The notes: generated by a model from the letters alone, not told the origin. Counted from the stretch's first letter, positions 19,981-44,874 are shown. The stretch: 64,000 bases of DNA from an uncultured Verrucomicrobiae bacterium (GCA_963827815.1 CAWHCL010000010.1:128482-192481), one strand, 5' to 3'. Numbers and translations: made by a program.

Positions 19981-20012
19981 TGCATTAATGAACTATCTCG
20001 AAACCGCGAAAT

Positions 20013-20285
20013 TCATTTTGCGCGGCGCTCCACGTCACATGTTTCGTCGCGGATGAAACATTTCAGCCCCGCGTCGCGAATGGCCGCGCGGAAGGCTTCC
20101 AGCTCTTCGCGCGCGCCTTCGGCGATCAATTCCACGCGGCCGTCGGATAAATTACGCACAATGCCGGAAATTTCAAATCCGGCGGCGACCGTTTTCGCGG
20201 TGTAACGAAACCCGACGCCCTGCACGTGGCCGGAATAAAAAACTCGCATGCGACAGCGGTTTGCGACTGGCACTTGTTCCGACAC
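20013..20285 (-). CDS. acyP: acylphosphatase
   Basis: Contains VFYSGHVQGVGFRY......G.V.N..DG.VE. The true start may be the internal ATG at 20249. Confidence 0.8.
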   Translation of the reverse strand: MSEQVPVANRCRMRVFYSGHVQGVGFRYTAKTVAAGFEISGIVRNLSDGRVELIAEGAREELEAFRAAIRDAGLKCFIRDETCDVERRAK

Positions 20286-20471: not shown

Positions 20472-22233
20472 ATGTTGAACACAAAATCATTTCTGGCGGT
20501 GGATTTTGGGGCGGGCAGCCTCAAGCTCGCGGAATTTGAAACCAACGAGGCCGGCGGCTTGCGTCTCAAGACTTTTTCCATCAAGCCTCTCGGCCCCGAA
20601 GGCGCCCAGGAAGCCACGCGCGAAAAAATAATTCTCAAGGCGCTCCAGGAGACGCTCGTCGAAAAGGGAATCAAGGCGAAGGATGTCAATGTCTGCGCGC
20701 CGGGCTTCCACGTTTTTTCCAAATTCGTCAAGCTGCCGCCGGTGGATGCGAACAAGGTGACGCAAATCATCCAATACGAGGCGCAGCAGAACGTGCCGTT
20801 TCCGCTCGTCGGAAGTCGTCTGGGATTATCAGATCCTGGGTTCCGCGCCCGGTGGCGAACTCGAAGTGCTCCTGGTTGCCGTCAAGACCGAAATCGTCGA
20901 GGGCTTGTTCCGCGTAGCGGCGCAGTCGAAGCTGCGGCTCCAGTTGTGCGACGCCTCGCCGGCCGCCCTGTGCAACGCATTCCGTTACAATTATGGAGAT
21001 CTCGAAGACTGCACGATGCTGCTGGACATCGGCGCCAAGACCAGCAACCTGCTGTTCTTTGAAAAGGGGAAGGTCTTCTCGCGCAGCATCAACCTCGGCG
21101 CGAATGCCATCACCCAGGATTTTGCCAGCGAGGCGAAATTGAAATTTGAAGTAGCCGAGCAGATTAAGATCGCCGAGGGCTTCGTCAGTCTCGGCGGCGC
21201 TTACGAGGAGCCGGAAAATCCCAACCAGGCGGCCATCGCAAAAATTGCCCGGCAGTTCATGACCAAGCTCCACATCCAGGTCAACCAGACGATGCAGTTT
21301 TACCGCGGGCAGCAGGGCGGCTCTGCGCCGCAGCGGGTGTTCCTGTCCGGTGGCGCCTCCATCATGCCTTACACGGCCCAGTTCTTCGCGGAAAAGTTGA
21401 ACGTGCCGGTCGAATACTTCAACCCGTTCCGCAATGTCCAGATTGATCCGGCGGTGAATCTCGAGGAACTGGCTCGCGTGGCCCATTCTCTCGGCGAGGT
21501 CGTCGGGCTGGGGTTGCGCAATCTGGCGAACTGCCCCGTGGAGATGAATTTGATGCCGGATAGCACGCTGCGCTGGCGCGCGTTCAACGAAAAGAAGCCG
21601 TATTTCATGGCGACGTTTTTTCTGCTGGCGCTGGTCGCGGGGGCGATTGGGTTCCTGTTCCAAAAACTGGCGTCTGCCAAGGAAGACTCAATCAGTGATA
21701 TACAGCCGCAGGTTGAGGCGATTCAGTCCCAGGTGACAAGGATGAATTCGGCCAATGCCCAGCTTCTGACAACCTCAAACCAGTTGAGTCAAATCACGAC
21801 TTGGATGGAGGATCGGTATTACTGGGGTGATATCCTGGCGGAATGTCGCCGGGTTCTTATCCGCTCCGAGGACGAGGTCAGGAAAAAGTATGCAGCGCAA
21901 AAACTGGGGATGGAAGCTGGCATCTGGATCGATCAGATGACACTGGGAGCCGCAAGTCCTGCTCCCGGCGACACCAGCGCACCCCAGGCGGCGGCAGGCG
22001 GCACACCCGGTCAAATCAGCGCCATCACACTGGTCTGCCGCGCGGTGGATTTGTCGGGCATCGATTCCGCCGCCAACAACGAAATTGTCTATGCCGTCGA
22101 GCGCGAGTTGAAAGCCTCGCCGGTGTTTGACCCCAAATCGGTGCAGCCCTCTGCCCAGATTTCGCCGGTGGACCCCAACGGCACGTTCACTTTCACCATC
22201 ACCGTCTCGCCGCAGAACCCGCTGCAATTGTGA
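20472..22233 (+). pseudogene. pilM: PilM-PilN fusion protein of a type-IV-pilus-like system, one frameshift as assembled
   Basis: It starts with an actin-like PilM N-terminus (FLAVDFGAGSLKLAEF). The frame shifts at ~20808 (..NVPFPL|SEVVWDYQILGS..). The PilM body then continues without a stop into a PilN-like NLMPDS...TM helix and periplasmic domain. Confidence 0.75.
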
Positions 22234-23144
22234 TTATGGGCTGGCTCAAACGAAATCTATTTTTTGTGATTGGCCTCGTCGTGGCGCTGGGGTTGCTCGG
22301 CGCCGCCGGCTATTACGATTACGCAGGCTGGTCCCACAATCAGGACGCGTTTGCCAGGTTGAATGAGGTCTACAGCCAGTGGTCCACAGCAGCCAGCTCA
22401 AAGCCCTCCCCCGGCTCCGGCCCGGTGGATAACATCGCCGCCGCCAGGGACCAGGAAGGCCGGCTCCGCCAGTGGATCAATCAGGCCACAAAATATTTCC
22501 AGCCGGTTGCGCCCATTCCCAGGCCGGCCAATGGCCCCGTGTCGGGCGAGTTGTTTGCCGGTGCGCTGCACCAGACCATAGCCCAGTTGCAGCATGAAGC
22601 CGACGCCGCGAATGTCGTGCTGCCCCCGCTATACGATTTTTCATTCACGGCGCACATGGACCGGCTCACGTTCGCCCCCGGCAGCCTTGACCCGTTGTCG
22701 GTCCAACTCGGCGAGGTGAAGACTATTTCGGAAATTCTTTTTGGGACGGGCATCAATGCGCTCGACGGCATCCAGCGCGTCCCCGTTTCGCCCGATGATG
22801 CGAGCGGGCCGCAGACGGATTATCTGACCGATCAACCCGTGACAAACGATTTGGCGGTGCTGGTGCCTTATGAAGTGACGTTCCGTGGGTTCAGCCCGGA
22901 AATCGCACGGGTGCTCGGGGCGTTTGCTTCCTCCCCAAACGGGTTCATCGTCAAGACCATCAGCGTTCAGCCGGCCGGCGCGGCGACTGATATCCAGCCG
23001 GCTGGCGCAACCGCCACCGACCCCAACGCGCCCCAGCCGGCCGCGCCCATGCCGGGCAAGGGCGGGTTGCAAACGGTGCTGAATGAACAATTGTTGCGCG
23101 TCACCCTGACGGTTGAACTGGTGAAATTGACGCCGAAAAACTGA
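22230..23144 (+). CDS. Amuc_1100-like pilus-associated protein
   Basis: N-terminal TM helix, a central domain ...YEVTFRGFSPEIARVLGAF...FIVKTISV, a Pro/Ala-rich linker, and a terminal ...LLRVTLTVELVKL. This architecture, and the position between the pilM-like and secretin genes, match my recollection of Akkermansia Amuc_1100. It has not been aligned. GTG at 22230 or ATG at 22236 could be the start. Confidence 0.55.
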   Translation: MIMGWLKRNLFFVIGLVVALGLLGAAGYYDYAGWSHNQDAFARLNEVYSQWSTAASSKPSPGSGPVDNIAAARDQEGRLRQWINQATKYFQPVAPIPRPANGPVSGELFAGALHQTIAQLQHEADAANVVLPPLYDFSFTAHMDRLTFAPGSLDPLSVQLGEVKTISEILFGTGINALDGIQRVPVSPDDASGPQTDYLTDQPVTNDLAVLVPYEVTFRGFSPEIARVLGAFASSPNGFIVKTISVQPAGAATDIQPAGATATDPNAPQPAAPMPGKGGLQTVLNEQLLRVTLTVELVKLTPKN

Positions 23145-23148
23145 ACGC

Positions 23149-23969
23149 ATGGAATTCATCAAAAAAAATTACGAGAAGATTATTTTGAGCCTCGTGTTGC
23201 TCGGATTGGTGGGCGTGCTGGCGTTCATGCCCGTGATGATTATTTCCGACCAGCAGCGGATGAGGGATTTGCGGGATACGGTCAGGCATCCAAAAGCCGT
23301 GCCGTTGGCGGATTTGGATTTGTCCCGGCAGACGAATGTGATGGATCGGCTGCAATCGCCGGAGGACTTGGATTTTTCGACCACGAACAAACTGTTCAAT
23401 CCGGTGCAATGGGTGAAGAACAAGGACGGCACCCTGATGAAAATCACGACCGGTCACGAAATCGGACCGGGTGCCGCAGTCATCGCCAGAATCACACCGC
23501 TCTATTTTACCATCGCGCTGGATTCGGTGATTACCAACGAACCGGGTGCGCGTTACGTTTTCAGTATAGAGGATCAGACGGCGCCGATCCCGGCACAGCG
23601 TCATAAGCGGCCCCATTACGCCTCGAAGGGCGAAACGGTGTCGGACAAGATGGTGGGTGGAAAAAATGAGGGATTCACCCTCAAGGACGTGAAAGGCGCG
23701 CCGGAAAATCCGGATCAGTTGGTCCTGTTGCTGGCCGGAACGCAGACGCCCCGTGACCTTGTCGAAGGACAATCCGTTCCGGCGCGTGGATGCCTATTCG
23801 GCGGATTTGAAATATGATCCGGAAAAAGTCAGCGTCACCGGGTTGCGGGTGGGAGATCATTTAAGTTTCGCCGGTGACGATTACAATGTTATTGCCATCG
23901 ATCAAAACCGAAGTGATATTGTTGGCGCAGTCGAACCAAAAAAAATACACTTTGCCTTACACACCTTGA
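23149..23969 (+). pseudogene. small N-terminally anchored protein of the pilus-like cluster (positional equivalent of Amuc_1099), two frameshifts as assembled
   Basis: TM helix IILSLVLLGLVGVLAFM. The frame changes at the C4 run 23749-23752 and at ~23909 (aaaacc). The three pieces read ...LLLAGTQTP|VTLSKDNPFRRVDAYSADLKYDPEKV...IAIDQN|EVILLAQSNQKKYTLPYTP*. Confidence 0.6.
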
Positions 23970-24023
23970 GTGCTAGAATTGTCGCATTACACGCCGCCGA
24001 TTTACGACGAACCTGAAACGACC

Positions 24024-26821
24024 ATGACAAAAGCTGTTTTTCTCCCGCTCGGTTTTCTTTTACTGCTCGCCACCGCGTTGCCGGCGCAAACCAACAGCCC
24101 CACCGACATGGCCGTCAACCGGGCGGTGATGGATCAGGCCAACACCATTCTCCTGCGCCAAAAACTCGAAGACGCCAAAAATGCCGCCGCGCGCGGCGAC
24201 CTGCTCGGTGCCGCCAAGCTTTACGAGGATGCCAAGGCGCTCGTTGACCAGATTGGTTCCGGCATCGACGCCGAGACCGCCCAGACTATTTCCGGCCTTG
24301 TGGCCACCCGGCTGGAACTCGCGCGCCAGGCCCAGCACAACGGCGATCTTCTCGAAGCCGATGCGCAAGTCACCCGCGCTTTGAGGGTGGACCCGCACAA
24401 TGCCGCCGCCATCGCTTTCAAAAAGGAAAACGACCAGACAATGGCGGCCATGAAAGGCCACATGCCCGACGTGGCCACATTGGAGCGGATTCCGCAGGTG
24501 ACCAATGACAAGACGGAGGCCGGCACACTGGTGCAGGACGGTAAACTGCTCTATGAAATGGGCAAATTTGAGGAGGCCGAGGTCAAATTGAATCAGGCCT
24601 TGAAATTGGATCCGGACAACGAAGGCGCATTTTACTATTTGAACCTGGTCAAGCAGGCCAACTACGCCCGCGAGGAAAACAACCGCACCACCCAGGCGCA
24701 AAACAGCATGGTGCAGGTGGCCAAGTCATGGTCGCCGAAGGTTGGTATTGGGCTGCCCGTGCCCAATCCTTACGTCACCAACGACGACATCCACACCGGG
24801 GTCGGGCGCGAAGTCATATACCGCAAGCTGAATAATATCCAGTTGGATTCGATTTCCTGGCCGGACGGCCTGCCGTTGAGCGAAGTCATCCGTTACCTGA
24901 CGGAACAGTCCAGATTGCGCGACCCGGAGAAGAAAGGCATCAACTTTATATTCAATCCGAATGTGGAATCCAGTTCGGCAGCCGCTGCTGGCGGGCTGGG
25001 CGCCGGGGCTCCGGGTCCGCTCAACGCCACCACCGGGTTGCCTGAAGCGCCGGGGGCCAGCGCCACCCCCGAAACTGTGGACGCCAGCACCATCAACGTC
25101 AGGCTGACGCTGAATAACATTTCACTTCACGATGCGCTCGACGCGATCGTGCTGGTTGCCGATCATCCCATTAAATATTCCGTTGAAGATTATGCGGTGG
25201 TCATTTCAGCCAAGCCGTCTGGGCCGGAACCGCCGGTGCTTGAGATGCGCGTGTTCAAGGTGGATCCAAACACCTTTTACGAAGGCCTGCAAAATGTGTC
25301 CACATTGAATTTTGGCAGTGCTAACAGTTCCTCAAGCGGCAACGGCGGCAGCAGCGGCGGCAGCAGCGGCGGCAGCAGCGGCGGCAACAGTGGCGGCAAC
25401 AGTGGCGGCAACAGCGGCAACAGCGGCAACGGCAGCAGCGTCAGTGGCGCTACAGTGCCGGTGATATTGGTAACGGGAAGTAGCGGTGGCGGTGGCAACG
25501 GGGGTGGCGGCCGCACAGGTGGCGGTGGTGGCGGTGGCGGTGGCGGTGGCGGTGCCGGTGGCACTGCCGGTGGCACTGCCGGCGGTACAGTTGGTGCCAA
25601 CTCCGGCGTCGGCGGGTTGAGTTACATCAATCCGTCTCCCAATCAGATGCAAAATGTCACCGCGGTGGCGCAGGCTTTCTTTACCGCCATCGGGGTGAAT
25701 TTGTCAGCGACCGCGCCTGGCAGGAGTATCGCTTTCAACGACCGTTTGGGATTGCTGTTCGTGAAGGCTACGCCGGGCGAACTGGACACCATCGAACGTG
25801 CCGTTCAGGCGTTGAACCAGGTGGCGCCTCAAGTGCATATCAGGACCCGGTTCATCGAGGTGGGACAGGATGACAGCACCGCGCTGGGCTTCGACTGGTA
25901 TCTGGGCAATTTCATCAATGGAAATGTCATTGCCAACGGCGGCAGTGCGCCTTCGCTCACCGTGCCGGTCTCGACGGCCAACCCGCTTGGCAGCCTTCCC
26001 CGGCAATACCACGGCGAGCGTCATCGCGCCCTCTGCCAACGATCAACTGCTCACAAGCGGATTGCGCAATACCGGTCCAACTCTCGCCACCATCACCGGC
26101 ATTTTGACAGATCCGAATTTTCGCGTGGCCATTAGGCGCTTTGTCACAGCGCACCGGGGTGGAAACCCTCGCCGAACCGGAAGCCGTCACCACCAGCGGT
26201 CGCCAGACCCAGATGCGCGCGACCGACCTCGAGTTTATCCTCACCGGTTTCAGCTTCCAGACGGGCACGCCAGGCACGGTGGGAACGGCAACAACGGCTG
26301 CCACCGCCGCCGGCACCTCCGCCGTCACGCCGAACACGCAGCAGTTTGAGATCGGCCCCACGCTGGACGTGGTGCCTTACGTTTTGTCCGATGGTTACAC
26401 CATCAATCTCACGTTGATTCCCCAGGTGTTGCAGTTCCTGCAATACGACACGGTGCCGACGGTTCCCGGATACACGCCCAATACCGCCGTGTCCGCCGGT
26501 GGCACCGCCACGTTGCCGACGGTTCTGCCTCACTTCACCGTGCGCGAAATCGTCACCGAGGTGAACATCTGGGACAACCAGACCGTCGTCCTGGGCGGAT
26601 TGATTTCCTCGGCCATCAACACCACCAAGGACAAGGTGCCGTTCCTCGGCGATTTGCCGCTCGTCGGTCGGCTCTTTCAAAGCCAGTCCAAGACGAGCGC
26701 GAAGAATAACCTGATGATTTTTGTGACGGCCACGATTGTGGATCCGGCGGGCAACCGCGTGCATTCGGACGACGAGCTGCCGTTCAACCCGGTCGACCAT
26801 TCCGGCGCAGCCGGTGGTTGA
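24024..26821 (+). pseudogene. pilQ: secretin (PilQ/GspD family) with TPR-like N-terminal region and Gly/Ser-rich insert, two frameshifts as assembled
   Basis: Signal peptide MTKAVFLPLGFLLLLATALPA. Secretin core: VHIRTRFIEV..., GILTDPNFRVAIR, LSQRTGVETLAEPEAVTTSGRQ, VPFLGDLPLVGRLF. The frame changes at the C4 run 25998-26001 and the T3 run 26140-26142. Confidence 0.8.
25335..25600 (+). repeat. Gly/Ser/Asn-coding simple-sequence tract inside the secretin gene
   Basis: Tandem ggcagcagcggc, ggcggcaacagt, ggtggcggt and ggtggcactgcc units. They encode SSSGNGGSSGGSSGGSSGGNSGGNSGGNSGNSGNG...GGGGGGGGGGGAGGTAGGTAGG. Confidence 0.85.
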
Positions 26822-26937: not shown

Positions 26938-27834
26938 ATGAAGCCTCAACCGATTTTGCTGATCGTTGACGGGCACGCCTACGCCTATCGCGCGTTTTAC
27001 GCGATTCGCGGGTTGCGGTCGCCGTCGGGCGCGCCGACGAATGCCATTTACGGCTTCGTCAAGATGCTGGCGAAAATGCGCGCGGCCATCGGGCCGACGC
27101 ATTTGATGGTGGTGTGGGACGGCGGCTTGAGCGCCGAGCGCACCGCGGTGCTGCCGGAATACAAGGCGCATCGGCCTGAAATGCCGGACGACTTGAAGCC
27201 GCAGTTGGATGAGATTGTGGGCTATTTGAACGCGGCGGGCGTCGCGTCGTTCTGCCGCGACGGGGTCGAGGCGGATGACTACATCGCGTGCCTGGCGCGG
27301 CGCGCGGCGGACGCGGGCATGGCGGTGGTCATCGCCAGCGCCGACAAGGATTTTATGCAGTTGGTGTCGGCGCGGGTCGGATTGCTGAACCCGGCCGACA
27401 AGAGCGAGACGGTCTGGACGGACGAGCAGGTGCGCGCCAAAACCGGCGTGGAGCCGTCGCAGATCGTGGACTGGTTGAGTTTGATGGGCGACAGCGTGGA
27501 CAACATTCCGGGCGTGCCCGGAATCGGGCCGAAGACGGCCGCCGATTTGTTGAACCAGTTCGGGTCGGTCGCGGAATTGTTCCGGCGGCTGGACGAGGTG
27601 AAGTCGGAAAAAGTGCGCGGCGCGTTGCGCGGGGCGGCGGACGCGGTGCGGCGCAACCGGGAACTGGTGCGGTTGCGGGACGATTTGCCGTGCGATTTTT
27701 CGCCGGCGGAACTGGCGGTAAAACCGGCGGATGCCGGGCGGCTGCGCGAATTGTTCGCGCGCTGGGGATTCAAGGGAATGCTGGCCGCGCTGGAAGCGGA
27801 ATCGCCGCGCGAGCGGCAGACGGCGTTGATTTGA
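26938..27834 (+). CDS. stand-alone 5'-3' exonuclease (PolI N-terminal / FEN-like domain)
   Basis: ORF trimmed to the ATG at 26938. Contains LLIVDGHAYAYRAFYA, YKAHR, EADD, DKDF.QL, and the H3TH motif GD..DNIPGVPGIGPKTA. There is no polymerase domain. Confidence 0.85.
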   Translation: MKPQPILLIVDGHAYAYRAFYAIRGLRSPSGAPTNAIYGFVKMLAKMRAAIGPTHLMVVWDGGLSAERTAVLPEYKAHRPEMPDDLKPQLDEIVGYLNAAGVASFCRDGVEADDYIACLARRAADAGMAVVIASADKDFMQLVSARVGLLNPADKSETVWTDEQVRAKTGVEPSQIVDWLSLMGDSVDNIPGVPGIGPKTAADLLNQFGSVAELFRRLDEVKSEKVRGALRGAADAVRRNRELVRLRDDLPCDFSPAELAVKPADAGRLRELFARWGFKGMLAALEAESPRERQTALI

Positions 27835-27980
27835 AAAAATGAATTTGCGAAGTTCGATGGAAGATGAAGCGGCAATTTGCCGCGAAGCGCGGCTGCGCGG
27901 GCAGCCGCGCCGGACGCGTTTTGTCGAAAGAATTTTTGGACAAAATGCCCTGATGCGTTTAGCGTTCTGCGGTGTTGCCC

Positions 27981-29983
27981 ATGTCGTTGTCGTTTGCCCG
28001 CAAGGCCGCCATTTGCTTTTGCTGGGGGTTGTTCCTCGCGGTTCCCGCCGCCGTTTTTGCCCAGACCAATTATTACACCACCAACGGGACGGAATACGCC
28101 GTCGTCGGCCAGTTGCCGGGCGATCAAGTCTGGCCCGACGTGGCGGTGAACACCAACGGCGGGTTTGTCGTGTGGCAGGACAACGCCACCGACGGCAGCG
28201 GCTGGGGCGTCAGCGCGCAGCGGCTGGACGGCACCCTGTCCGGCACGTTGAGCACCTTCCGCGTGAATGTGACGGGCACAAACGACCAGGAAAACGCGCG
28301 CGTGGCGCTGTTGAAAAACGGCGGCGCGGTTTTCGTCTGGCAGGGCGGTGTGGAGGGGCTGAATCAGCACATCTACGCGAGATTCCTGAATTCGAGCAAT
28401 ATTTTTATTGACCATCCACGGACGTGATGGTCAACACGTTCACCAATAATTTCCAGATCAACCCCGCCGTGGCCGTGCTGAACAACAGCAACGTCGTGGT
28501 CGTCTGGGGCAGTTATGACGAGGCGGGATCCAACAGCTTGCAGGATGTGTATGGCCAGACTTTTTCGACGGCGGGACAGAAGATCGGCGGCGAGTTTTTG
28601 GTGAACCAGTTCACGAATTACAACCAGCGCACGCCGGCCATCGCGCCGCTCGCCAACGGCGGGTTCGTTGTCGCCTGGGTTTCGGAGCAGGAACAGGCGG
28701 TGGCGCCAGTTTTGGGGACCAATTCAACCTATATTATAAGCAGCACCGCCACGGTCCCGAGCGTGGATGTTTACGCCAGGCTTTATAATAGCAACAGTCT
28801 TCCCCAGGGCGGCGAATTACTCGTGGACACAAACAGCTTGAATCCCTGCGCGAATCCTAGCGTGGCGGTTGCGGCGGACGGCAGTTTCATGGTGGCATGG
28901 GGGGGCTTCGACATGGTCAACCAGACCAACGGTTGGGACATCTATGCGCGGACTTTTTCCAGCGCGGGTATTGGCGGGGCGACTCTCCGTGTCAATACCC
29001 ATTTGCCGGGCAATCAATACGAGCCGCGCATCAGTTCCATTGGCGGGGATTATCTGGTGGCCTGGACGAGCATGGGACAGGACGGTTCGCGCGAGGGCGT
29101 TTATGGACAGTTCGTACACGAGAACGGTTCGCCGGTGGGCGGTGAATTTCTTGTGAACACAACCACCGCCGGCCAGCAGATGCAGCAGGCTGTGGCCTCG
29201 GATGGTGTGAGCCAGTTTCTTGCCGTCTGGACCAGCTACGCCGGCAGTCCCTACGGCTTTGATTTGTTTGCGCAGCGTTATATCAACGTCGCCGCCATTC
29301 TGCTGCCGATGAATGCGCCGATTGTCGTCGCGCCGTTCACCTTGAGCAACAATGTATATCAGCCGCAGTTGCAGGTCTCGTGGCCCGTGTTGCTGGGAAT
29401 TTCCGTCTCCAATTTTGAGGTTTACGTGGATGGATCGGGAACGCCCACTGGCGTCGTCACCAGCAATTCTTGGACGATGACCGCCGCGAATGGCTTGACC
29501 ACCAATAGCACGCATTCATTCACGGTGGATTACGTGAGGACGGACGGGCGGCGCTCGCCGCTGTCGCCTTCAGCCAGCGGTTCGACTTGGAGCGGGCTGA
29601 ATTGGGGCGGCATTCCGTATGAATGGATGGCCGCATTTTTCGGCGGATACTACGGCGGGGCTTATCACACAAATGGCTGGCCGGCTCCAAACCTGCCCCC
29701 GCCGGGCAGTTCGTCCGGTTCGCCCACCACTCTGCAGTTGTTTTTGAGCGGCGGCATCCCGTATGAGCCGGCCACATGGCTGCAACAGGTGCTCACCCGG
29801 ACGCCGCAAGGGATGTTCTTGAACTGGAACACGCAGCCGGGGCTGACCTACCAGGTGCAGGTGACTACGAATTTGACCTCGTGGAGCAATCTGGGTTCGC
29901 CGCGGTTTGCGGCGGGCACGAACGATTCGATTAATGTCGGCGGCACTCCGGCGGGTTACTACCGCGTGCTGTTGCAGCGTTGA
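27981..29983 (+). pseudogene. secreted beta-propeller protein (about seven G-G-F-V-V-x-W blades) + Fn3-like domain + [FY][FY]RV C-terminal module; one frameshift as assembled (locus gene A)
   Basis: Signal peptide MSLSFARKAAICFCWGLFLAVPAAVFA. Repeating ~55-60-aa units (NGGFVVWQD..., NGGFVVAWVSE..., DGSFMVAWGG..., GDYLVAWTS...GEFLVNTTT). Junction at ~28412 (NIFID|PSTDVMVNTF), consistent with one missing C. Ends ...GYYRVLLQR. Confidence 0.65.
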
Positions 29984-29987
29984 TGAA

Positions 29988-32357
29988 ATGAGTATGCAGC
30001 AAGTGATGAAACAATTTGTCGCGTTGGGTTTGATGGCGCTCGGCCTTCAAACTGCCGGGGCGTTTTCGCTCGGCGGGCCGATTGGCAACGCCGGTGACTC
30101 TTGGCAGCAGGCGGTGATCGGGTATGCCTTGGGTGGCGACCTCAATGCGCCGAAGAACATCGGCGAGGAATATCGCCGCAACCTGCCCGTGATGTATTAC
30201 GCTTGTAATGCGAATTTTCTGGATTTCTTCGGTTCAAACGGTGTTTCGGCGGTGGACAGCTCCTTTGCCATTTTGAACGGACTGACGAACGTGGACAGCT
30301 ACAGCCCCAGCCTTTCTGAGTTTCCCTTGGAAACGCGGCACTTGAATTATCAGGCGGAGGCCCTCGGGTTGTTCGATTTGAAATCGTGGACGCTGGGGGC
30401 GATGGTGGAGCAGTTGGGGCTGGCCGACCCGGTGCGCTACGACTGGACCCTGCATGATCGCGCTCATGTCGGCAATATTGCCTGTCCCGTGGGCATGGAA
30501 TATCTCGTGGTGCAAAGAAATTTTGATTCCATCACCAGCCCGTTGAATCAGCTTCAATACTCGCCTTACGTCAACAACACCCTCTACAGCTACTACATTG
30601 TGGAGTTTTGCACGGGGCCGAATCCCCTGGCTTTGTCCGTCCCTTTTTCCGTGGATCCTTTGGCGGACACCTATTCACCGGTCGCTTCGTTTCAGTCCGT
30701 TGGCTTGACGTATGGTCAATTTTACACCGGCCTGACGCGGGATGACGTGGCCGGGTTGCGTTATGATTTGACCGCCAACAACATCAACTTTGAAAGCCCG
30801 CCCGCAGGGGGGTTGTTGCTGACCACCAATCTCGGCACAGTTCAGGTCATCACCAGTTCCAGCCTCACCGCATTGATGTTGTCCGCCCAAACCAATGCTC
30901 CGACCCTGATTCCAGCCTTGTTCCCGGGCGTGTTGGTGGCGGGTTCTTCGAGTTATTTTGCCGAAGTTTGCACGACCAATTACGTCGCATCCATCCCAAG
31001 CCAGAATTATGGCGCGCCGTATCCTGCTAATTTTGGCGCGTTGGTTCTCTCGCCCGTGGTCAATTGCGGTTACCAGCAACTGTATGTGACCACTTTTGCC
31101 AATGTCATCACCAATGGCAATCTGACCAACAACCCGAACATCACTCTCGCCAGCACCAACATCGTTTTGAGTTTTTCTACCAACAGCATTGTCACCACGT
31201 TGACGACTTCGCTCACCCCGAACACAGCGCCGGGCCAGCCCTATCCGCCGCCCCCGGTAACGAATGCCAATTTCACCTATTCGACGACAACCGTCAATGT
31301 GCCGTCCGGGGAATATCTCATCCTTCCGACCGGCGCGTGCGGGTTCAACATCCTTGGCGAACTGCCTTTGCCTCCGGTTTTTACCACTAACTTTGTTTCC
31401 ACGGCCACCAACGCGAACGGTTTTGTGGACACGGTCAGCACCGTCACTTCGTTCACGCCCCACCAGTTTCTTGTCCAGCCAATCAATTGCGGGACTGCCA
31501 CGCCGGCCCCGGGTTTGCGTGAGGGCATTGAGCGGATGCAATTTGTTCGGGCCAATTATGATTCGCTCCTCGGCCAGTTCTTCCAGCCCATCACCAATGC
31601 CTTCACGATCGGTCCTGGTCACCAACAGCCAGGCGGTGAATCAGGCGTTCCAGCGCGTGGTGACCACTCCTGATTTCATCTTTTCCGCCGCGGATTTGGC
31701 TACGGGTCCCTCCAGCACTCCTCATCCCGTGGTTGCTTTAGTTTTTCGCGCAACCTCAATTTTGACCAGTCCCAAATTTTGCCGGGACTGGCCGGGCCGG
31801 GGCTTATCACCCCGTCCACTACCATCACATTCGACAAGGTCGGTCCGGTGTATTACAACGAATACAACACCGATATCATGGATGGAACGCCCTATTTCAC
31901 CGAAACCCCCGGCAATGACGGAAACGATTTGTACTATTCATTTTACTTTGTCTGGGCGTCCTACGATGGCACGACCAATGACCCGGTGGTTTATCCCAAC
32001 GGCAGTAGCATTCAGAATCTGGAGAACCAGGTTTTGGTCCAGATTGCCCCGGCTGGTCTGCCGAATGGGACGAACGGGTCGCCCTATTTATTCGTCTACA
32101 CGAACTCCGTCGGCATCGTTTACACAAATACCATCACGGCCACGGGTGGTGCGTTTACCTATTCCCCGCCGCCCACTTGGACGGCAACGGGACTGCCGTC
32201 GGTCCCCTCATCGGGATTGCCTCCGGGACTGACATTGTCGCCCGCCGGGGTGCTTTCCGGCACCCCCACGCAATCCGGCACATTTGATTTCTACCTCGTT
32301 ATGACCGATGCTTTGGCCCGAAGCGTGCAATGGTATTTCTCGATCACCATCCCATGA
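29988..32357 (+). pseudogene. secreted protein of unknown family (locus gene B); frame excursion 31610-31745 as assembled
   Basis: Signal peptide MSMQQVMKQFVALGLMALGLQTAGA, then FSLGGPIGNAGDSWQQAVIGY...NIGEEYRRNLPVMYYACNANFLDFFGSNGVSAVDS. The frame goes 0 -> 1 at ~31610 and back at ~31745. The C-terminus has an Ig-like PPGLTLSPAGVLSGTPTQSGTFDF segment. Confidence 0.55.
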
Positions 32358-32401: not shown

Positions 32402-35400
32402 ATGAAATGGCCCCGGTTGTGCGCAATGTTGGGCCTGCTGATGACGCGCGCCGCATTGGCCACGGACCCAATGTATGAAAATGACGGCACCGTGGATTAT
32501 ACCGGCGCAGCAGGTACCTATCCACCCCAGATTGACGCGACTAATTTTGTCAACGCTAACGGCGGTGTGTTCATCATTGATTGGAATATTATCTCGGATC
32601 TGGCCAACAACTATTACGAAACTTTGAACACCGTCAATTACACCAACAACAATTTGATGAGCAGCGACGACGGCTTCTGGTTCATGACGCAGACAACCAA
32701 TGTGATTTCACAGCAGATGGCCGGCACCTTCTATAATGCGGGCGAGGTGGATTGCAGTTATCAGTGCGTCGTCTGGGCAACCAACATCCTGAATCCCGGG
32801 ACCGTGAACGTGCCGGGCTATTTGACCATCGTGAATCAGGGCACGCTCGCGACGGGTACGTCCGCCCTGTTGCAATTCACCGGGCAAAATGTGGATTTGA
32901 CCGGCAGCGCGCTCAGCATAGCGGGTGGCCAGGGATCCGCCCAGGCGGTCGGGCTTTTTGGCAAGATCGGTCAGGACACAAACAGTGATTGGGATGCAAG
33001 TTTTGATTTGGGGTCAACCTACGCGTTCCCTTCATTTCCCGTGAGTGGTTTGTTGCCGCCAAGCTCGGGCGGTTATGGCTTCCCCAACCTGCCGCTGAAT
33101 ACGACGCCTTATTTTAATGTCACAGCGGTCGGGACAAACACCATCATATACCGGGCGGTTTTCCTGCAGGATACCAGTGGTGCCGGCGTCTCCCACAATA
33201 CCTACTTCGACAGCGCCGGTTTTGTTGGCGGCGGCAACGCCACCGTTGAATGGGTCGGCTCCTATGTGGACCCGGCGACAGGTATTCCGGCCACACATTA
33301 CCTCTATCTGAACGATAATTATCTCCAGTCTGTCGCCACCAACGATCCGATTGCCAATGGCGTGCCGTTTAATTTCACGTTCACAGAGAGCCCCACGCAA
33401 ATAGGCCTTGGCACCCCCACCGCCGCCGGCTTTTTGAATGTGTTCGATTCCGGTTTCGTCAGCAATCGTTTTGCCTATGTCAGCGCGCAGTTGATCGCAA
33501 CGAGTGCGGGTACCAACAGCATTCCAAATCACTCCATCACGAATCTCCCCGCCCGGATTCAGATCAATGCCAGCCACGAGCTGAATTTGGCGCTGGCCCA
33601 GATTACCCAGCCGGATTATCTTTCGTTGCGGGCAACCAATCAATATGATGGCAATGCGGGCGCGCGAATCGCCGCGCCGTTCAGCGACATCAATCTCGGC
33701 GTCACCAATGGATTCAATGGGCCTCTTGCCTTCACCAATCTTCTGCCCCAGTCGTTTCCAATCTGGGGCGGCACGTGTCAGGCTTGGAGTACGCGCTGGT
33801 TTGTCCTGACCACCAACACCTCCATCGTATTTTCCAACGCCATACCCATTGCCACCAACAACTTTGCAGTGACTAACGATTTTCGCATCGAAATTGTTGC
33901 CAGTCAGCTCGCGCCAACATCCATCGCCCAGGTGCAGAACCTGGTTTTGCATGACACCAACAGCGTGGTCATAAGTGACGCGCTCAATGTCCTGCAATCG
34001 CTGTCCATTAACGCGCAAAGCCTGACCTTGACGACCAATGTCTTTGGCAATGGCGCGAGTTCCGCCGACGGCGAGTTGAACTTGGAATCAGCCGGCATAC
34101 TCTGGCCGGGTTCGTTGCCGAATCTGCTCTGGCTCACCAACAACGGCGGCATCAGCACCATGAATCTCGCCAATTTTGGCTCCGCCGCACAGCCTTATGG
34201 CGCCTTCGTCAACAGCGGCCGCGTAAGCAATTTGGGCGGCTCCGCCATCTGGGCGCTGGATTTTGAAAACTACGGGACGTTCTTCTCCGGCACCGGCAGC
34301 TTTAACCTGCAATCCCTGGCCACGACCATGACGAATGGCTCGGTTGTTGCCGGTGGTAACATCACCATTGGGACAGCCAGCTTGGTGGCAAGCAACTCGG
34401 TCTTGTCCGCTGGGGCCGCGCTGAATCTTACGGTCACCAATTTGCTGGCGGATACCGGTGCCACCAACGGCAATATCTGGCAGATTGGCGGCAAGGCCCC
34501 AAGCGCCAGCCCGGGTATTTATTTTAACAACGGCTTCAATCTGCCTATCAAGCCGCCGGTCAGGCGATTTGCTGGGGACGACGGTTTCCAACGTGGTGCC
34601 TCCTCAGGCAGTTAGTGGCCTTGTCACAAATCTCAATGTCACCATCAATAACCTTTGGTCGGGCTTGGATGATGGCGTTTCCAATTCGGGCTACACGAAC
34701 AATGTCGCGGTGGGACATCTCATTTTGGATGCGCAGGGGAAAAACAGTATGTTCAAATTCTACGGTACCGGCGCAAGCAACGCGATTTATGTGGACCGTT
34801 TGGAACTGCGCGATTATGCCAGTTGGACCAATTTGGCCGGCAGGGACATCCACAACAATCTGCTGGCGCTGTCGTTTAATACCAATCTGGTGATTTATTA
34901 TGCCGATGCGATTTCCCAGGGCGCTGGTGATGTGTCGGAGGAACTGGATCAAAAGAATAACGGCCATCTTCGATGGGTCCCGTCTTACGCCGGCTATTTC
35001 AGTTCCACCAACATCGTTATCTGCCGGCGTGACCAATACGGTAAATGTTGCGTTGGCTCAGAGCCATGACATTGATTCCAATGGCAATGGTATTGCCAAC
35101 GTCTCTGACCCCGTGCCGTTCTTCTTGGCGGGCATGATCAATTTGGCGGTGTATCCGACCAATCAGCCGGCAAACACCGTGGCGATCAGTTGGGATGCTG
35201 TTCCGCTGGCAACCAACACCGTTCTCTATTCGACCAATCTTGTGAACTGGCAGCTTTTGTCGAATGTTTATATTCCGACAAATCCTTTTATCACGCCGAG
35301 TCCATATCCCGGGCCGGTGACAAACATCATTATTTTTGACCCGAAATCCGTTCCTGGACGGTTTTACAGGGTTTCGATTTATCCGTGGCTGACATATCCA

Positions 35401-35506: not shown

Positions 35507-38500
35507 ATGCAAACATTTGCAGGCCGGGGGCTGGGAAGCCTACTCCGGAGCGCTGGCTTGGCAAGGCTGGGACTTATGGCTCTGGCCGGTTTGACGTTGA
35601 GCGTCGCCCATGCGCAGCCGGCAAATGATAATTTTGCCAGCGCGATTGACCTCACCCCCTATGGCGACACGGGTTCAACGACCAATAGCAACGTGGGAGC
35701 AACCATAGAGCCGGGTGAACAAAATTTAGATGGTATTACTGTCTTCGCTTCGGTCTGGTATTCATGGACGGCCTCCACCAATGAAACCACGGAGTTTGAT
35801 CCCAACGGCAGTGCTTTTGGCACGAATCTGGCCTTTGTACAGGTTTTTACAAATAAGGCTGGCGGTAGTATCAGCAATCTGCAGTTTGTGGCCTATAGCT
35901 ACTCCGGTTATTATGGTGGAACTTTTTATAATTCCACAAATAGCTTCCAGGCGGTGGCGGGGCGGACATACTACATATCCGTGGCGGGTTATCAATTTCA
36001 GAGTGCCACCGGGGCCATTCAGTTGAATTGGTCCTCTGGCCCGCCTATTCCTCCGCCCTCCAACGACAACTTTACCAACGCCGCCGTTCTGACGGGCGAT
36101 TGGGGCACTACAAATGTGAACAACAGCCGGTTGCCACCCATGAGCCCGGCGAACCAAGTATCGCCGGTTCTCCGCCAAACGCCTCGGTTTGGTATCAGTG
36201 GACTGCGCCGTCGGATGGCGAAGTAACCTTGGATACCATCGGCAGCAGCGTTGGACACGGTGCTGGCGGTTTATACTGGCACCAGTCTGGCGGACCTTAA
36301 CCAGATATCGGCCAATGACGACCTTTTCCCGGTCAACACCAGTCTTGCGCAGTCCAGTGGAGCCGCTAATGAAACAGCCGACAGCTCGGAAGCGGCGCTC
36401 TTTGGTCCCGGCTCCACCCCGGTATTTGGTTACTATCAGCCTTACTATGGTCCCAGCGGCCTTCGCTTCAATGCAAAGGGTGGAACGACTTATGACTTTG
36501 CGGTGGATACAAAAAGCGGGACGGCGGGTCCCATTTCGCTGAATTGGGCCTACAAGTCTTCAGGCGTTTTCCGCTGGGCCACGGAAGATCGGGATCTGCA
36601 GACGGGGCAGCAGCTTTATCAAACGGCGCAGACGGAAAGTGCCACGCCCGCGGGGCTTAATAACCAATCTCTTTCAGCCGTGTCCACCTATTACACTTAC
36701 AACGTCCCCGGCGTTTTGGTGACGGTCACCCGCGTCGCCGGCTCTACTGGGCGCGTGACGGTGGATTATTCTACCGAAGATGGTACTTTTGTGCCCATTC
36801 CGTTCAATGACGTTCCCGCCTTCGCCGGAATTGATTATCAATCCGTTCATGGCACTCTTGTTTTTGACGATTACGAAATGAGCAAGACCATTCTCGTTCC
36901 AATTGTTAATTCTGGGGCCAACTTGTATAACATGGATTTTGGAGTGGTGCTGTCAAATCCCCAGTTGGACCCGTCCGAATCCAGCGACGTGTCCCCGCCC
37001 CGCGTGGATCCGTCGTTCAGCACCGCCATGGTGAAAATCTTGAATACAGGCGCCGATCCTTACGGTCCTGACTACGTTCCGCAGTTGTTAACCAACATGG
37101 TTGCTGTTTATGATACCAATGTTCCGCCGAATTTCTTGTACAATACCAACGTTGTTTCCACCAACACGTGCTGGCCCTTTATCCCACCAATGCCATTTTC
37201 AACTTTGAGAAGGCCAATTATCGCGTGCCGGCGGATGTGAATGGAACCAATAGTCCGTGGACACAGGTCACTCTTTGGGTGGAGCGGTTTGGAACGAATG
37301 CCAGCGCTCAGACCCTCAATTATCGGGTCAACAACTTCCTCGGTGTATGATCAGCAAGTCTGACGAAGAGGAGAACGCCTTAATTTCCGCTCCAGCCGGG
37401 TTCCGACTATGCCGTCCCGACTCCGCCCAGCCAGCAATGTGTTTAAGGGGAGAAATTCCGATTTCAACCTGGCTTACGGGCACCATCAGTTTTCCGGCGC
37501 ACTGGCGCCGGCGAAGCCCTTACCAACCCATCACCTTCACCGTGACCAACGCGCAGCCTCACGAAATTCAACAAGGATTTCAAGATCGAGCTGTTTCAGA
37601 CAAAAACTGTTGGTGGCCACAATGTGCCGGTGCTCGTGGGCATGAACAGCGAAACGACGGTGACCATTTTGTTCAATGATCAAAATCCCCCGGCGGGTTC
37701 CGTGGACGAGCTTTACAACGCGGATTTCAACGGCGACCTTGCCCTGCCGCCCGCCCAGGTCCCACAAACCTGGCCGGTCAACAATCTGGAAAATCCCGGC
37801 GTTTCAGGCCAGGTGTATGGCTCTGGCGGTTCTCACCAATGACGAGACCATCATCGCCGGCAATTTTTTCATCCTATAATGGCTATGCCCAGAACAACCT
37901 CGCGCTGCTCAACACCGATGGTTCGATGGACACCTCCTTCAATCCGGGCGACAGCGCCAGCGGCGCCATCAACGCCCTCGCGCTTTACGGCAGTCAATTT
38001 GTCATCGGTGGCGCGTTCACGTCTTATAACGACCAGGGCGTCGGCAACTTTGCCCGGGTGAACTGCGGATGGTTCGCTGGACTCGGCCTTTTCCATCTCC
38101 CAGGGTTCGGGCGCGGATGCCGCCGGTTCGCGCGGTCGCGGTGCAGCCGGATGGCAGGGTGGTCATCGGCGGTGATTTCACCCACGTGGATGGAGTCGCG
38201 CGCAATTATCTGGCAAGGTTGAATGCCGATGGTTCGTTGGACGCGTCCTTCAACCCCGGCAGCACTTTGAACGGTTCGGTTTATGCCTTGGCGCTCCCCC
38301 AGTCCACGGTTTTTAGCCTGATCCGCAATGATCCCACCAACAGTCCCAATGAGGACGTTCAGTATATCAATCTCGGCACGTTGACGTCCGGCACCTTGAC
38401 AATTAATTACAACAGTTATCTCTACACGAATTTCATGGGCGTTTTTTACGGTGGCACCAACACCGTCACGGGGGCTGGGGTCAGTCTGGGCGCTTTCACC

Positions 38501-44841: not shown

Positions 44842-44874
44842 CAGCCATGCGCAACCTCAATCCAATCAGCCTTT

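What the first reader, a model, noticed from the sequence alone, without database searches (positions are those of the whole stretch)
20472..26821. Amuc_1100-type type-IV-pilus-like cluster lacking pilin, ATPase and platform genes
Four co-directional, nearly abutting genes encode:
- a PilM-PilN fusion;
- a protein whose architecture matches my recollection of Akkermansia Amuc_1100 (TM anchor, FRG...ARVLGAF...V.TISV core, P/A-rich linker, terminal LLRVTLTVELVKL strand);
- a small TM-anchored protein;
- a ~930-aa secretin with a TPR-like N-terminus.

The order mirrors the Akkermansia Amuc_1101/1100/1099/1098 arrangement, in which Amuc_1100 is a host-active outer-membrane protein. No pilin, PilB/PilT ATPase, PilC platform or prepilin peptidase lies within or next to the cluster, so what the secretin exports is open.

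The cluster is followed on the same strand, after one exonuclease gene, by five large secreted proteins. That prompts the speculative idea that those proteins are cargo.
Basis: partly seen in the sequence, partly recalled or inferred. Interest (0 to 1): 0.6.

Follow-up and report, generated by a model that had tools for sequence, protein, structure and literature searches.

The report
Amuc_1100-type pilus machinery gene cluster
Four adjacent genes in a soil or peat Verrucomicrobiota genome encode the membrane scaffold and outer-membrane pore of a type IV pilus-like machine that is distantly related to the Akkermansia cluster holding the host-active protein Amuc_1100, so it is a new member of a known family, not a new system.

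Summary
Window 20472-26821 carries four co-directional, nearly abutting genes:
- a PilM domain fused through one membrane helix to a periplasmic domain;
- a 302-aa Amuc_1100-family protein;
- a 272-aa membrane-anchored protein;
- a 931-aa secretin with a TPR-like N-terminus.

Three of the four are broken by five 1-nt frameshifts. Housekeeping neighbours carry the same kind of insertions, so these look like assembly noise.

Each protein's best NCBIfam hit is Amuc_1101, 1100, 1099 and 1098, in that order, but all score below the curated cut-offs. The Amuc_1100 link rests on three results: Pfam PF28028 on close relatives, a profile comparison (E 4e-7), and a confident model whose top PDB matches are Amuc_1100 crystals, followed by PilO.

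The cluster is therefore the alignment-plus-secretin module of a type IV filament machine. Such modules are usually encoded apart from pilin and ATPase genes. The same order occurs in 80 related (mostly Limisphaerales-titled) genomes. No Amuc_1102 pilin-like gene is present.

Two further results. Three unannotated secreted proteins follow the cluster in 59 of 60 relatives, which gives the cargo idea some support but not proof. In 55 of 68 relatives the secretin is split into two genes.

The parts
20472..22233 (+). PilM-like actin-fold domain (aa 15-355) fused through one TM helix (aa 383-401) to a periplasmic coiled-coil plus alpha/beta domain. This is an Amuc_1101-type, GspL-like architecture. 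One 1-nt insertion at 20808 breaks the frame.
   Evidence: Pfam PilM_2 E 7.8e-37 and FtsA 6.4e-11. NCBIfam Amuc_1101_fam 482 bits (cut-off 650) and TIGR01175 pilM 143.9 (cut-off 133). TM segment. Frameshift. 32% identity to Amuc_1101 over residues 1-464.
22236..23144 (+). Amuc_1100-family, PilO-like bitopic protein (302 aa from the ATG, 304 from GTG 22230). It has an N-terminal TM helix, a long helix, an alpha/beta core with two alpha-beta-beta motifs, a P/A-rich linker and a C-terminal strand. The ORF is intact.
   Evidence: NCBIfam Amuc_1100_fam E 1.5e-11, 44.3 bits (cut-off 180). PF28028 on relatives. hhalign to Amuc_1100: probability 92.8, E 4e-7. AF2 pLDDT 89.3. Foldseek: Amuc_1100 structures E 2e-10, then PilO.
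23149..23969 (+). Bitopic protein (272 aa) in the Amuc_1099 / PilP / GspC position. It has an N-terminal TM helix, a linker and small beta-barrel domains. 1-nt insertions at 23748 and 23910.
   Evidence: NCBIfam Amuc_1099_fam E 0.006, 16.2 bits (cut-off 50), N-terminal 108 aa only. No Pfam or PDB sequence hit. AF2 model of a close homologue (P0316), pLDDT 80.7. Foldseek finds no PilP or GspC. Present in 80 of 80 related loci.
24024..26821 (+). Secretin (931 aa reconstructed) with signal peptide, TPR-like N-terminal region, N3-like domain and C-terminal secretin domain. Amuc_1098 type. Frameshifts at about 25991-25995 and 26134-26141.
   Evidence: Pfam Secretin E 5.4e-29 and TPR_11 E 2.3e-7. 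NCBIfam Amuc_1098_fam 320.7 bits (cut-off 750), GspD 137, MshL 110, PilQ 95. PDB secretins GspD/PilQ E 6e-17 to 1e-13.
25314..25589 (+). Gly/Ser/Asn-rich low-complexity tract inside the secretin (aa 431-522), encoded by short tandem DNA repeats.
26261..26338 (+). T/A/G-rich linker inside the secretin domain (aa 746-771). It sits at the site where most relatives have a stop codon, a short gap and a new signal peptide (split secretin).
26938..27834 (+). Stand-alone 5'-3' exonuclease (Pol I N-terminal type). It is a conserved neighbour, presumably unrelated in function.
   Evidence: NCBIfam DNA polymerase I N-terminal region and 5'-3' exonuclease models. Present in 60 of 62 loci.
27972..29983 (+). 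'big1': secreted protein of about 670 aa, made of ~55-aa repeats plus C-terminal beta domains. No known family. Linked to the cluster by synteny.
   Evidence: No Pfam, NCBIfam or PDB hits. Signal peptide. Present in 59 of 60 loci, mean identity 63%.
30006..32357 (+). 'big2': secreted protein of about 780 aa, no known family. Linked by synteny.
32402..35069 (+). 'big3': secreted protein of about 890 aa, no known family. Linked by synteny. Frameshifted near its end.
35507..47388 (+). Two more secreted-protein genes: a giant Calx-beta repeat protein (35507-44841, many frameshifts) and an S53/sedolisin-type peptidase with DUF11 repeats (44875-47388). Their conservation next to the cluster could not be tested because the loci end earlier.
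   Evidence: Pfam Calx-beta E 1.9e-43; Pro-kuma_activ E 6.2e-28; DUF11 E 7.4e-20. Signal peptides.
47402..48016 (+). Dephospho-CoA kinase (coaE). In Akkermansia, coaE (fused to rho) directly follows the secretin. Here about 20 kb of genes lie in between.
   Evidence: TIGR00152 152 bits. Akkermansia locus. L039 has secretin, exonuclease, then coaE.
20013..20285 (-). Acylphosphatase gene, divergent. It marks the upstream boundary. No Amuc_1102-like gene lies between it and the cluster.

Best explanation

Shown:
- Gene 1 has a PilM actin-like cytoplasmic domain tied by one membrane helix to a periplasmic domain.
- Gene 2 has the Amuc_1100/PilO fold on an N-terminal membrane anchor.
- Gene 4 is a secretin with a TPR-bearing N-terminus.

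Inferred:
- The periplasmic part of gene 1 plays the PilN role and pairs with gene 2, as PilN pairs with PilO and GspL with GspM.
- Gene 3, a bitopic protein in the PilP/GspC position, links this inner-membrane pair to the secretin.
- The pore lets a filament, or material pushed by one, cross the outer membrane.
- The pilin or pseudopilin, the assembly ATPase, the platform protein and the prepilin peptidase are encoded elsewhere in the genome, as is usual for pilMNOPQ-type operons.
- The frameshifts are sequencing or assembly errors, so the genes are functional in the organism.

The cluster is the Limisphaerales-type counterpart of the Akkermansia Amuc_1098-1101 (MUL2) genes, without the Amuc_1102 pilin-like gene.
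For: - Domain hits: PilM_2, TIGR01175 above its cut-off, Secretin, TPR.
- NCBIfam best hits are Amuc_1101, 1100, 1099 and 1098, in order.
- PF28028 'Amuc_1100' is recorded on a 92%-identical protein and on genuine Amuc_1100.
- hhalign gives a collinear 231-column match to Amuc_1100, probability 92.8, E 4e-7.
- The AF2 model (pLDDT 89.3) matches Amuc_1100 crystals at E 2e-10, TM 0.7-0.78 on the target. PilO follows: 2RJZ, 5UVR and chain O of the Myxococcus pilus machine 3JC8.
- One TM helix per inner-membrane protein, and a signal peptide on the secretin.
- The Akkermansia locus has the same order and a TPR-secretin.
- The four genes are intact and contiguous in 80 of 80 related loci.
- A PilT-family ATPase gene sits divergently next to the cluster in L076, L059 and L087.
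- Frameshift insertions are spread over housekeeping neighbours too.
- Literature: Amuc_1100 is described as structurally PilO/PilN-like and the cluster as pilus biogenesis machinery (bioRxiv 10.64898/2025.12.30.696933; PMC13174399; PMC13119276).
Against: - The PilN identity of the gene 1 C-terminus is not detectable by sequence. There is no PDB hit. hhalign to the gene 2 family covers only the TM and coiled-coil part, at probability 67%.
- The gene 3 model does not match PilP or GspC. Its best hits are tandem Tudor/KOW-type barrels, E about 5e-3, TM below 0.2.
- All Amuc_109x/110x equivalog cut-offs are missed.
- No pilin, ATPase or platform gene could be shown in this genome, because only 64 kb is available.
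- Akkermansia literature places Amuc_1100 at the cell surface or outer membrane (PMC5332112), not in the inner membrane as a PilO analogy predicts.
- Pilus versus secretion function is not resolved. Apart from the Amuc_1098 family model, the secretin scores higher with GspD (137 bits) than with PilQ (95 bits), both below cut-off.
Confidence: 0.8

Rival explanations
1. The module works mainly as a type II secretion-like exporter or surface-display device. The Sec-dependent proteins encoded just downstream (big1, big2, big3, perhaps also the Calx-beta protein and the S53 peptidase) are its substrates or its surface-attached partners.
For: - big1 follows the cluster in 59 of 60 relatives with enough flank. 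Upstream synteny holds in only 54 of 67.
- The order persists in a member only 35% identical in gene 2, which has a different upstream context.
- In L064 and L073 the exonuclease is absent and big1-3 directly follow the secretin.
- All downstream proteins have Sec-type signal peptides. They are on the same strand with short gaps.
- The architecture is GspL/GspM/GspC-like: a fused PilM-PilN and a TM-anchored third protein. GspD outscores PilQ.
- From general knowledge there are precedents for substrates encoded beside T2SS operons (pulA, sslE).
Against: - An unrelated 5'-3' exonuclease keeps its position just as well (60 of 62). Conserved order in this clade therefore does not prove shared function.
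- All surveyed loci belong to one related clade.
- Akkermansia and L039 lack big1-3 next to the secretin.
- big1-3 have no recognisable family or fold assignment.
- I could not test whether big1-3 ever occur without the cluster.
Confidence: 0.2
2. The cluster is decaying. The five frameshifts are real and three of the four genes are pseudogenes.
For: As given, genes 1, 3 and 4 are interrupted.
Against: - The same 1-nt insertions hit neighbouring housekeeping genes at a similar density.
- Outside the indels, the reading frames stay open and alignable to intact homologues.
- Close relatives have intact genes.
Confidence: 0.05
3. The Amuc_1100-like protein is not an inner-membrane scaffold. It is a surface-exposed or pilus-associated protein exported through the secretin, as Amuc_1100 is usually described in Akkermansia.
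For: Akkermansia work finds Amuc_1100 enriched in outer-membrane fractions and labelled on whole cells (PMC5332112; PMC10688800).
Against: - The fold is that of PilO, a periplasmic domain on an inner-membrane anchor.
- The N-terminus is an uncleaved-looking TM helix that continues into a 55-residue helix in the model.
- Its gene sits in the PilO position.
- Nothing in this window bears on localisation directly.
Confidence: 0.15

Closest known systems
Akkermansia muciniphila Amuc_1098-Amuc_1102 cluster (MUL2 locus; Amuc_1100 'pili-like' protein)
   Same: - Same gene order: PilM-fusion, Amuc_1100-family protein, small bitopic protein, TPR-secretin.
- Each protein's best NCBIfam model is the corresponding Amuc family.
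- Shared Pfam PF28028.
- Shared fold for the Amuc_1100 homologue.
- coaE lies downstream in both.
   Different: - Very low sequence identity: about 15% for Amuc_1100 and 32% for the PilM part.
- All equivalog cut-offs are missed.
- No Amuc_1102 (MUL2A) pilin-like gene.
- Gene 3 is not demonstrably homologous to Amuc_1099.
- An exonuclease and about 19 kb of secreted-protein genes are inserted between the secretin and coaE.
- The organism comes from soil or peat, so host-related roles (TLR2 signalling, mucin use) cannot be transferred.
Type IVa pilus alignment sub-complex PilM-PilN-PilO-PilP with secretin PilQ (Pseudomonas, Myxococcus, Neisseria)
   Same: - PilM domain above the TIGR01175 cut-off.
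- PilO fold for gene 2.
- Secretin domain.
- Operon encoded apart from pilin and ATPase genes (general knowledge).
   Different: - PilM and the PilN-like part are one polypeptide.
- The third protein is TM-anchored and does not match PilP.
- The secretin has a TPR N-terminus and a Gly/Ser-rich tract, and scores far below the PilQ cut-off.
Type II secretion assembly platform GspL-GspM-GspC with secretin GspD
   Same: - From general knowledge, GspL is architecturally a PilM-PilN fusion, GspM corresponds to PilO, and GspC is a bitopic protein that contacts the secretin. This matches the one-helix topology of genes 1-3.
- Apart from the Amuc_1098 family model, GspD is the best-scoring secretin model.
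   Different: - No GspL, GspM or GspC family hit.
- No pseudopilin, GspE or GspF genes nearby.
- GspD is below its cut-off (137 against 351).
Split secretin RhcC1/RhcC2 of rhizobial-type type III secretion systems
   Same: In 55 of 68 relatives of this cluster the secretin is encoded by two genes. The Rhc T3SS family also has this (PMC3574062).
   Different: - It is a different secretion system.
- Here the two genes are adjacent and the second carries its own signal peptide.
- The split lies inside the secretin domain, at GspD model positions 463/475.
- The window itself has the fused form.

Membership tests
Amuc_1100 family (Pfam PF28028 / NCBIfam NF038287) | Match to Pfam PF28028 'Amuc_1100' | tested here: met
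   Indirect. The local Pfam copy lacks this model (no hit). Precomputed hits put PF28028 on all 120 listed relatives, including P0001 at 92% identity, and on genuine Amuc_1100.
Amuc_1100 family (Pfam PF28028 / NCBIfam NF038287) | NCBIfam equivalog score of at least 180 bits | tested here: not met
   44.3 bits, E 1.5e-11, full-length alignment 3-301 against 1-324 of 326. It is the only family hit.
Amuc_1100 family (Pfam PF28028 / NCBIfam NF038287) | Amuc_1100 three-dimensional fold | tested here: met
   AF2 pLDDT 89.3. The ten best PDB matches are all Amuc_1100 chains: E 2e-10 to 2.5e-9, TM on target 0.69-0.78.
Amuc_1100 family (Pfam PF28028 / NCBIfam NF038287) | Detectable pairwise sequence similarity to Amuc_1100 | tested here: not met
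   BLASTP gives no significant alignment. phmmer and the family profile against PDB sequences do not find 6KNY or 6LAD. Only hhalign does: probability 92.8, E 4e-7.
Amuc_1100 family (Pfam PF28028 / NCBIfam NF038287) | Host-active function (TLR2 agonism, outer-membrane exposure) | not testable with these tools
   This is known only for the Akkermansia protein (PMC5332112). The organism here is environmental.
Akkermansia MUL2 / Amuc_1098-1102 cluster | Gene order PilM-like, Amuc_1100, Amuc_1099, secretin on one strand | tested here: met
   Window compared with the Akkermansia locus L086.
Akkermansia MUL2 / Amuc_1098-1102 cluster | Amuc_1102 (MUL2A, archaeal-pilin-like, PF28178 / NF042424) at the head of the cluster | tested here: not met
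   An acylphosphatase gene lies upstream instead. There is no tblastn or phmmer hit to Amuc_1102 in the window or in 85 related loci. Remote homologues could be missed.
Akkermansia MUL2 / Amuc_1098-1102 cluster | Amuc_1101, Amuc_1099 and Amuc_1098 equivalog cut-offs | tested here: not met
   482 against 650, 16.2 against 50, and 320.7 against 750. Each is nonetheless the best-scoring model. An intact gene 3 homologue gives no hit at all.
Type IVa pilus PilMNOPQ module | PilM | tested here: met
   TIGR01175 143.9 bits (cut-off 133); Pfam PilM_2 E 7.8e-37.
Type IVa pilus PilMNOPQ module | PilN | tested here: inconclusive
   The topology fits: a TM helix, then a coiled coil and an alpha/beta domain. 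No sequence or profile match was found.
Type IVa pilus PilMNOPQ module | PilO | tested here: met
   By fold only: 2RJZ E 9e-5, 5UVR E 1.5e-3, 3JC8 chain O E 7.5e-4.
Type IVa pilus PilMNOPQ module | PilP (lipoprotein with beta-sandwich domain) | tested here: not met
   Gene 3 has a TM anchor, not a lipobox. Its model gives no PilP or GspC match.
Type IVa pilus PilMNOPQ module | PilQ secretin | tested here: inconclusive
   The secretin domain is clear (PF00263 101 bits; PDB PilQ/GspD E about 1e-15). TIGR02515 scores 94.9 against 284, and GspD scores higher.
Type IVa pilus PilMNOPQ module | Pilin, PilB, PilC and PilD present in the same genome | not testable with these tools
   Only 64 kb is available, with none in it. 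A PilT-like gene lies beside the cluster in 3 relatives.
Type II secretion system | GspD, GspL, GspM and GspC family matches | tested here: not met
   GspD 137 against 351. There are no GspL, GspM or GspC hits. The resemblance is architectural only.

The most novel reading that the evidence does not exclude
In this Limisphaerales lineage the Amuc_1100-type module, which lacks the Amuc_1102 pilin-like gene, forms one functional unit with the three family-less secreted proteins that almost always follow it. Those proteins would be exported or displayed through this secretin. That would make it a substrate-linked, secretin-based export system distinct from classical T2SS. Its pore can be built from one polypeptide or two.
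Probability: 0.2. Interest if true: 0.6.

Novelty: new member of a known kind. Interest (0 to 1): 0.35.

Why it matters
Amuc_1100 is studied almost only as a host-active Akkermansia protein. This window shows that it belongs to a widespread family: about 1,300 clusters at 50% identity match the gene 2 profile. The family is built on the PilO fold and always sits in a PilM, X, Y, secretin operon in free-living soil and peat Verrucomicrobiota. This supports reading Amuc_1100 as a structural part of a pilus-type machine, not as a dedicated host signal.

Two results give testable handles on what this machine handles and how its pore is built. One is the tight linkage to three unknown secreted proteins. 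The other is the repeated splitting and re-fusion of the secretin gene.

Tried and rejected
- phmmer of gene 2, and a 98-sequence family profile, against PDB sequences found no Amuc_1100. BLASTP to Amuc_1100 found nothing significant. Similarity appears only with profiles and structure.
It was rerun with A1.
- Profiles of gene 3, the gene 1 C-terminus and big1 against PDB sequences gave only chance-level hits. Pfam on 52 gene 3 homologues gave nothing consistent.
- hhalign of gene 3 against Amuc_1099 gave probability 19%. The gene 1 C-terminus against the Amuc_1101 C-terminus gave 7.5%. These are not evidence.
- The promoter and terminator scan was at chance level.
- My Walker-box regex missed the PilT of L076 (GSTGCGKST). 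I replaced it with tblastn.
- The PilT metagenome scan showed that PilT orthologues are mostly solitary, so it did not reveal pilB, pilC or pilin clusters.
- Exact-sequence look-ups of window proteins found no record, so the source assembly is not in that collection.
- The papers by Davey et al. 2023 and Hughes et al. 2025 were not held.
- The pseudogene reading was rejected on the indel pattern.

Full report
**1. What is in the sequence**

ORF listing and three-frame translation show four genes on the + strand:

| Gene | Coordinates | Notes |
|---|---|---|
| 1 | 20472-22233 | PilM-like fusion |
| 2 | 22236-23144 | alternative GTG start at 22230 |
| 3 | 23149-23969 | small bitopic protein |
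| 4 | 24024-26821 | secretin |

- Gaps between the genes run from a 4-nt overlap to 54 nt.
- Genes 1, 3 and 4 are not open as given. The frame changes near 20808, 23748, 23910, 25991-25995 and 26134-26141.
- I aligned the window to a close relative (L082, 86.7% nt identity). The first three breaks are single-base insertions in the window; the two in the secretin are a 1-nt deletion plus a 2-nt insertion (net +1). They are not in homopolymers. The same kind of insertion also breaks the neighbouring heptosyltransferase, metallophosphoesterase and acylphosphatase genes.
- In L081-L083 the four genes are intact, at 586, 302, 272 and 954 aa.
- I therefore treat the frameshifts as assembly noise and used reconstructed proteins of 591, 304, 272 and 931 aa.

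**2. Identity of the four proteins**

*Gene 1*
- Pfam PilM_2, E 7.8e-37 over aa 15-355, plus FtsA. TIGR01175 pilM scores 143.9 bits against a cut-off of 133.
- One hydrophobic helix at aa 383-401, followed by about 190 residues.
- I could not tie those residues to PilN by sequence.
- The 'PilM-PilN fusion' is therefore an architectural reading. From general knowledge, GspL of type II secretion has the same layout.

*Gene 4*
- It has a signal peptide, TPR hits at aa 173-206, a Gly/Ser-rich tract at aa 431-522 encoded by tandem repeats, and a Secretin domain at aa 705-906.
- It matches solved GspD and PilQ chains at E 6e-17 to 1e-13.

*Genes 2 and 3* have no hit in the local Pfam copy.

*NCBIfam* gives, as best hit for genes 1 to 4, Amuc_1101_fam, Amuc_1100_fam, Amuc_1099_fam and Amuc_1098_fam, in that order. 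All are below the curated cut-offs: 482 against 650, 44.3 against 180, 16.2 against 50 and 320.7 against 750.

**3. Is gene 2 an Amuc_1100 homologue?**

- Single-sequence methods say no. A 98-sequence family profile also fails to find the Amuc_1100 chains among PDB sequences.
- Three other lines say yes:
  - All 120 listed homologues carry the precomputed Pfam family PF28028, including one at 92% identity. Gene tables name that family 'Amuc_1100'. Genuine Amuc_1100 carries the same family. I recalled its sequence and then verified residues 31-317 against 6LAD and 6KNY.
  - hhalign aligns the family collinearly with Amuc_1100 over 231 columns: probability 92.8, E 4e-7, 15% identity.
  - An AlphaFold2 model (pLDDT 89.3, pTM 0.77) was searched against the PDB. 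The ten best matches are Amuc_1100 chains, E 2e-10 to 2.5e-9, TM on target 0.69-0.78. Next come PilO of Pseudomonas (2RJZ, 5UVR) and the PilO chain of the Myxococcus pilus machine (3JC8).
- Gene 2 is thus a remote but real member of the Amuc_1100/PilO-fold family.

**4. Gene 3**

- Its only link to Amuc_1099 is its position and a short N-terminal motif.
- An intact homologue has no NCBIfam hit. hhalign to Amuc_1099 gives probability 19%.
- An AF2 model of a close homologue (P0316, from the search seeded with L082's intact gene 3; pLDDT 80.7) shows a TM helix, a poorly defined linker and small beta-barrel domains.
- Foldseek finds only Tudor/KOW-type barrels at E about 5e-3 with TM below 0.2. 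It finds no PilP or GspC.
- Its PilP/GspC-like bridging role is an inference from gene order and topology.

**5. Comparison with Akkermansia and the literature**

- The real A. muciniphila locus (L086) reads: Amuc_1102 (PF28178), PilM-like protein of 612 aa, Amuc_1100, a 337-aa protein, a 906-aa TPR-plus-Secretin protein, then a CoaE-Rho fusion.
- The literature calls this the Amuc_1098-1102 type IV pili cluster or MUL2 locus.
  - It describes Amuc_1100 as structurally PilO/PilN-like and Amuc_1102 as archaeal-pilin-like.
  - It has already surveyed synteny in Akkermansiaceae and other Verrucomicrobiales.
  - Sources: PMC5332112; PMC10688800; PMC13119276; bioRxiv 10.64898/2025.12.30.696933; PMC13174399.
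- Three differences here:
  - There is no Amuc_1102 homologue. An acylphosphatase gene lies upstream instead.
  - Sequence divergence is very high.
  - An exonuclease gene and about 19 kb of secreted-protein genes are inserted between the secretin and coaE.

**6. Synteny survey**

- A scan of species-representative genomes returned 80 loci. Identity in gene 2 is 43-73%. Record titles are mostly Limisphaerales or Verrucomicrobia subdivision 3, from peat, bog and soil.
- All 80 have the four genes in order.
- Counting only loci with enough flank:

| Neighbour | Present |
|---|---|
| Upstream acylphosphatase/phosphoesterase | 54 of 67 |
| Exonuclease | 60 of 62 |
| First downstream secreted protein (big1) | 59 of 60 |

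- A member only 35% identical in gene 2 keeps the same downstream order, although exosortase genes replace its upstream context.
- In L064 and L073 the exonuclease is missing and big1-3 follow the secretin directly. L039 has secretin, exonuclease, coaE and no big genes.
- big1-3 have Sec-type signal peptides and no Pfam, NCBIfam or PDB-sequence match.
- This is real support for a link between the module and big1-3. However, the equally conserved and plainly unrelated exonuclease shows that order conservation alone is weak evidence in this clade.

**7. Missing partners**

- Neither the window nor the 10-kb flanks of 83 related loci show a prepilin motif.
- A PilT-family ATPase gene lies divergently upstream in L076 and L059 and in one metagenome contig, L087. 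It lies nowhere else near the cluster.
- The other large window ORFs that I scanned are housekeeping or unrelated: PFK, LigA, MlaEFD, GalE-like, glycogen-branching-like and LolCDE.
- Separation of the alignment/secretin operon from pilin and ATPase genes is the norm for type IV pili (general knowledge). The absence is therefore expected, not anomalous.
- Whether this genome has those genes could not be tested.

**8. Side finding: a split secretin**

- In 55 of 68 relatives the secretin is two adjacent genes.
  - The first gene stops right after the '...ILTGFSFQ' strand.
  - The second usually starts within about 35 nt of the stop (sometimes overlapping it) with its own clear signal peptide.
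- In L017 the first ORF covers GspD-model positions 275-463 and the second covers 475-591.
- The window and 13 loci have a fused gene, with a T/A/G-rich linker at this site (window 26261-26338).
- In a rough neighbour-joining tree of the PilM proteins, rooted on Akkermansia, the basal lineages are mostly fused (one, L073, is split) and the crown group is split. Fused forms reappear in at least four sub-clades, including the window's.
- Split secretins are known in rhizobial-type T3SS (PMC3574062). A five-phrase literature search found no such report for pilus-type systems.

**9. Verdict**

- The Amuc_1100-type assignment is supported at the family and fold level, but not at the equivalog level.
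- The 'missing parts' puzzle is largely ordinary.
- The cargo idea is strengthened but unproven.
- The finding is a new member of a known kind, with two side observations worth follow-up.

Noticed in passing
Related loci, e.g. L017:11791-13971 plus 13999-14600, L007:11779-14031 plus 14055-14621; window equivalent 26261-26338: In 55 of 68 relatives the secretin is encoded by two adjacent genes. The split lies inside the secretin domain, and the second gene has its own signal peptide. The window and 13 loci have a fused gene with a T/A/G-rich linker at that site. A rough tree suggests an early split followed by several re-fusions.
   Followed up: partly
window 27972-35069 and the matching positions in L001-L085: Three large secreted proteins with no Pfam, NCBIfam or PDB-sequence match follow the cluster in 59 of 60 relatives. 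This conservation is higher than that of the upstream flank (54 of 67). big1 (mean 63% identity) is better conserved than genes 2, 3 and the secretin.
   Followed up: partly
window 18150-28414, for example 18640, 18692, 19397, 19776, 20041, 20808, 23748, 23910, 26795: There are many single-base insertions relative to a close relative. They are not in homopolymers and they break housekeeping genes as well as cluster genes. The window looks like an unpolished or noisy assembly.
   Followed up: yes
L076:6652-7740 (-), L059:6791-7876 (-), L087:1198-2283: A PilT-family ATPase gene (Walker A GSTGCGKST) lies divergently next to the cluster in three relatives. In dozens of other contigs its orthologue stands alone, without pilB or pilin genes.
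   Followed up: partly
L084/L085:3803-7979; L064:3586-7833: In basal relatives the cluster is preceded by exosortase (EpsH), EpsI, a sugar transferase and an epimerase, that is, PEP-CTERM system genes. The secretin N-terminus of L017 also has a weak, sub-threshold match to the PEP-CTERM TPR lipoprotein PrsT (24.9 bits).
   Followed up: no
window 16776-17438 (-) and 17447-18154 (-): Two tandem 3-keto-disaccharide-hydrolase-like (PF06439-type) genes occur where the close relative L081/L082 has one. The DNA alignment overlaps on the relative, as expected for a tandem duplication.
   Followed up: no
window 25314-25589: A long Gly/Ser/Asn tract, including a run of 12 Gly, lies in the secretin between the N-terminal domains and the N3/secretin core. 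It is encoded by 6-12-nt tandem repeats. Akkermansia Amuc_1098 has only a short counterpart.
   Followed up: no
record titles of L001, L009, L010, L018, L031, L064 and others: Several public MAG records that carry this Verrucomicrobiota locus are titled Bifidobacteriaceae, Methylomirabilota, Acidoferrum or Dongiaceae. The titles look wrong.
   Followed up: no
window 55837-57921 (-): Another secreted protein without a Pfam match has a choice-of-anchor Q domain. Its C-terminus ends in '...FFYRVGVQ', which by eye resembles the tails of big1 and the S53 peptidase. BLAST does not support homology.
   Followed up: partly
L086:14890-16911: In Akkermansia the gene after the secretin is called as a single 673-aa CoaE-Rho fusion protein.
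   Followed up: no
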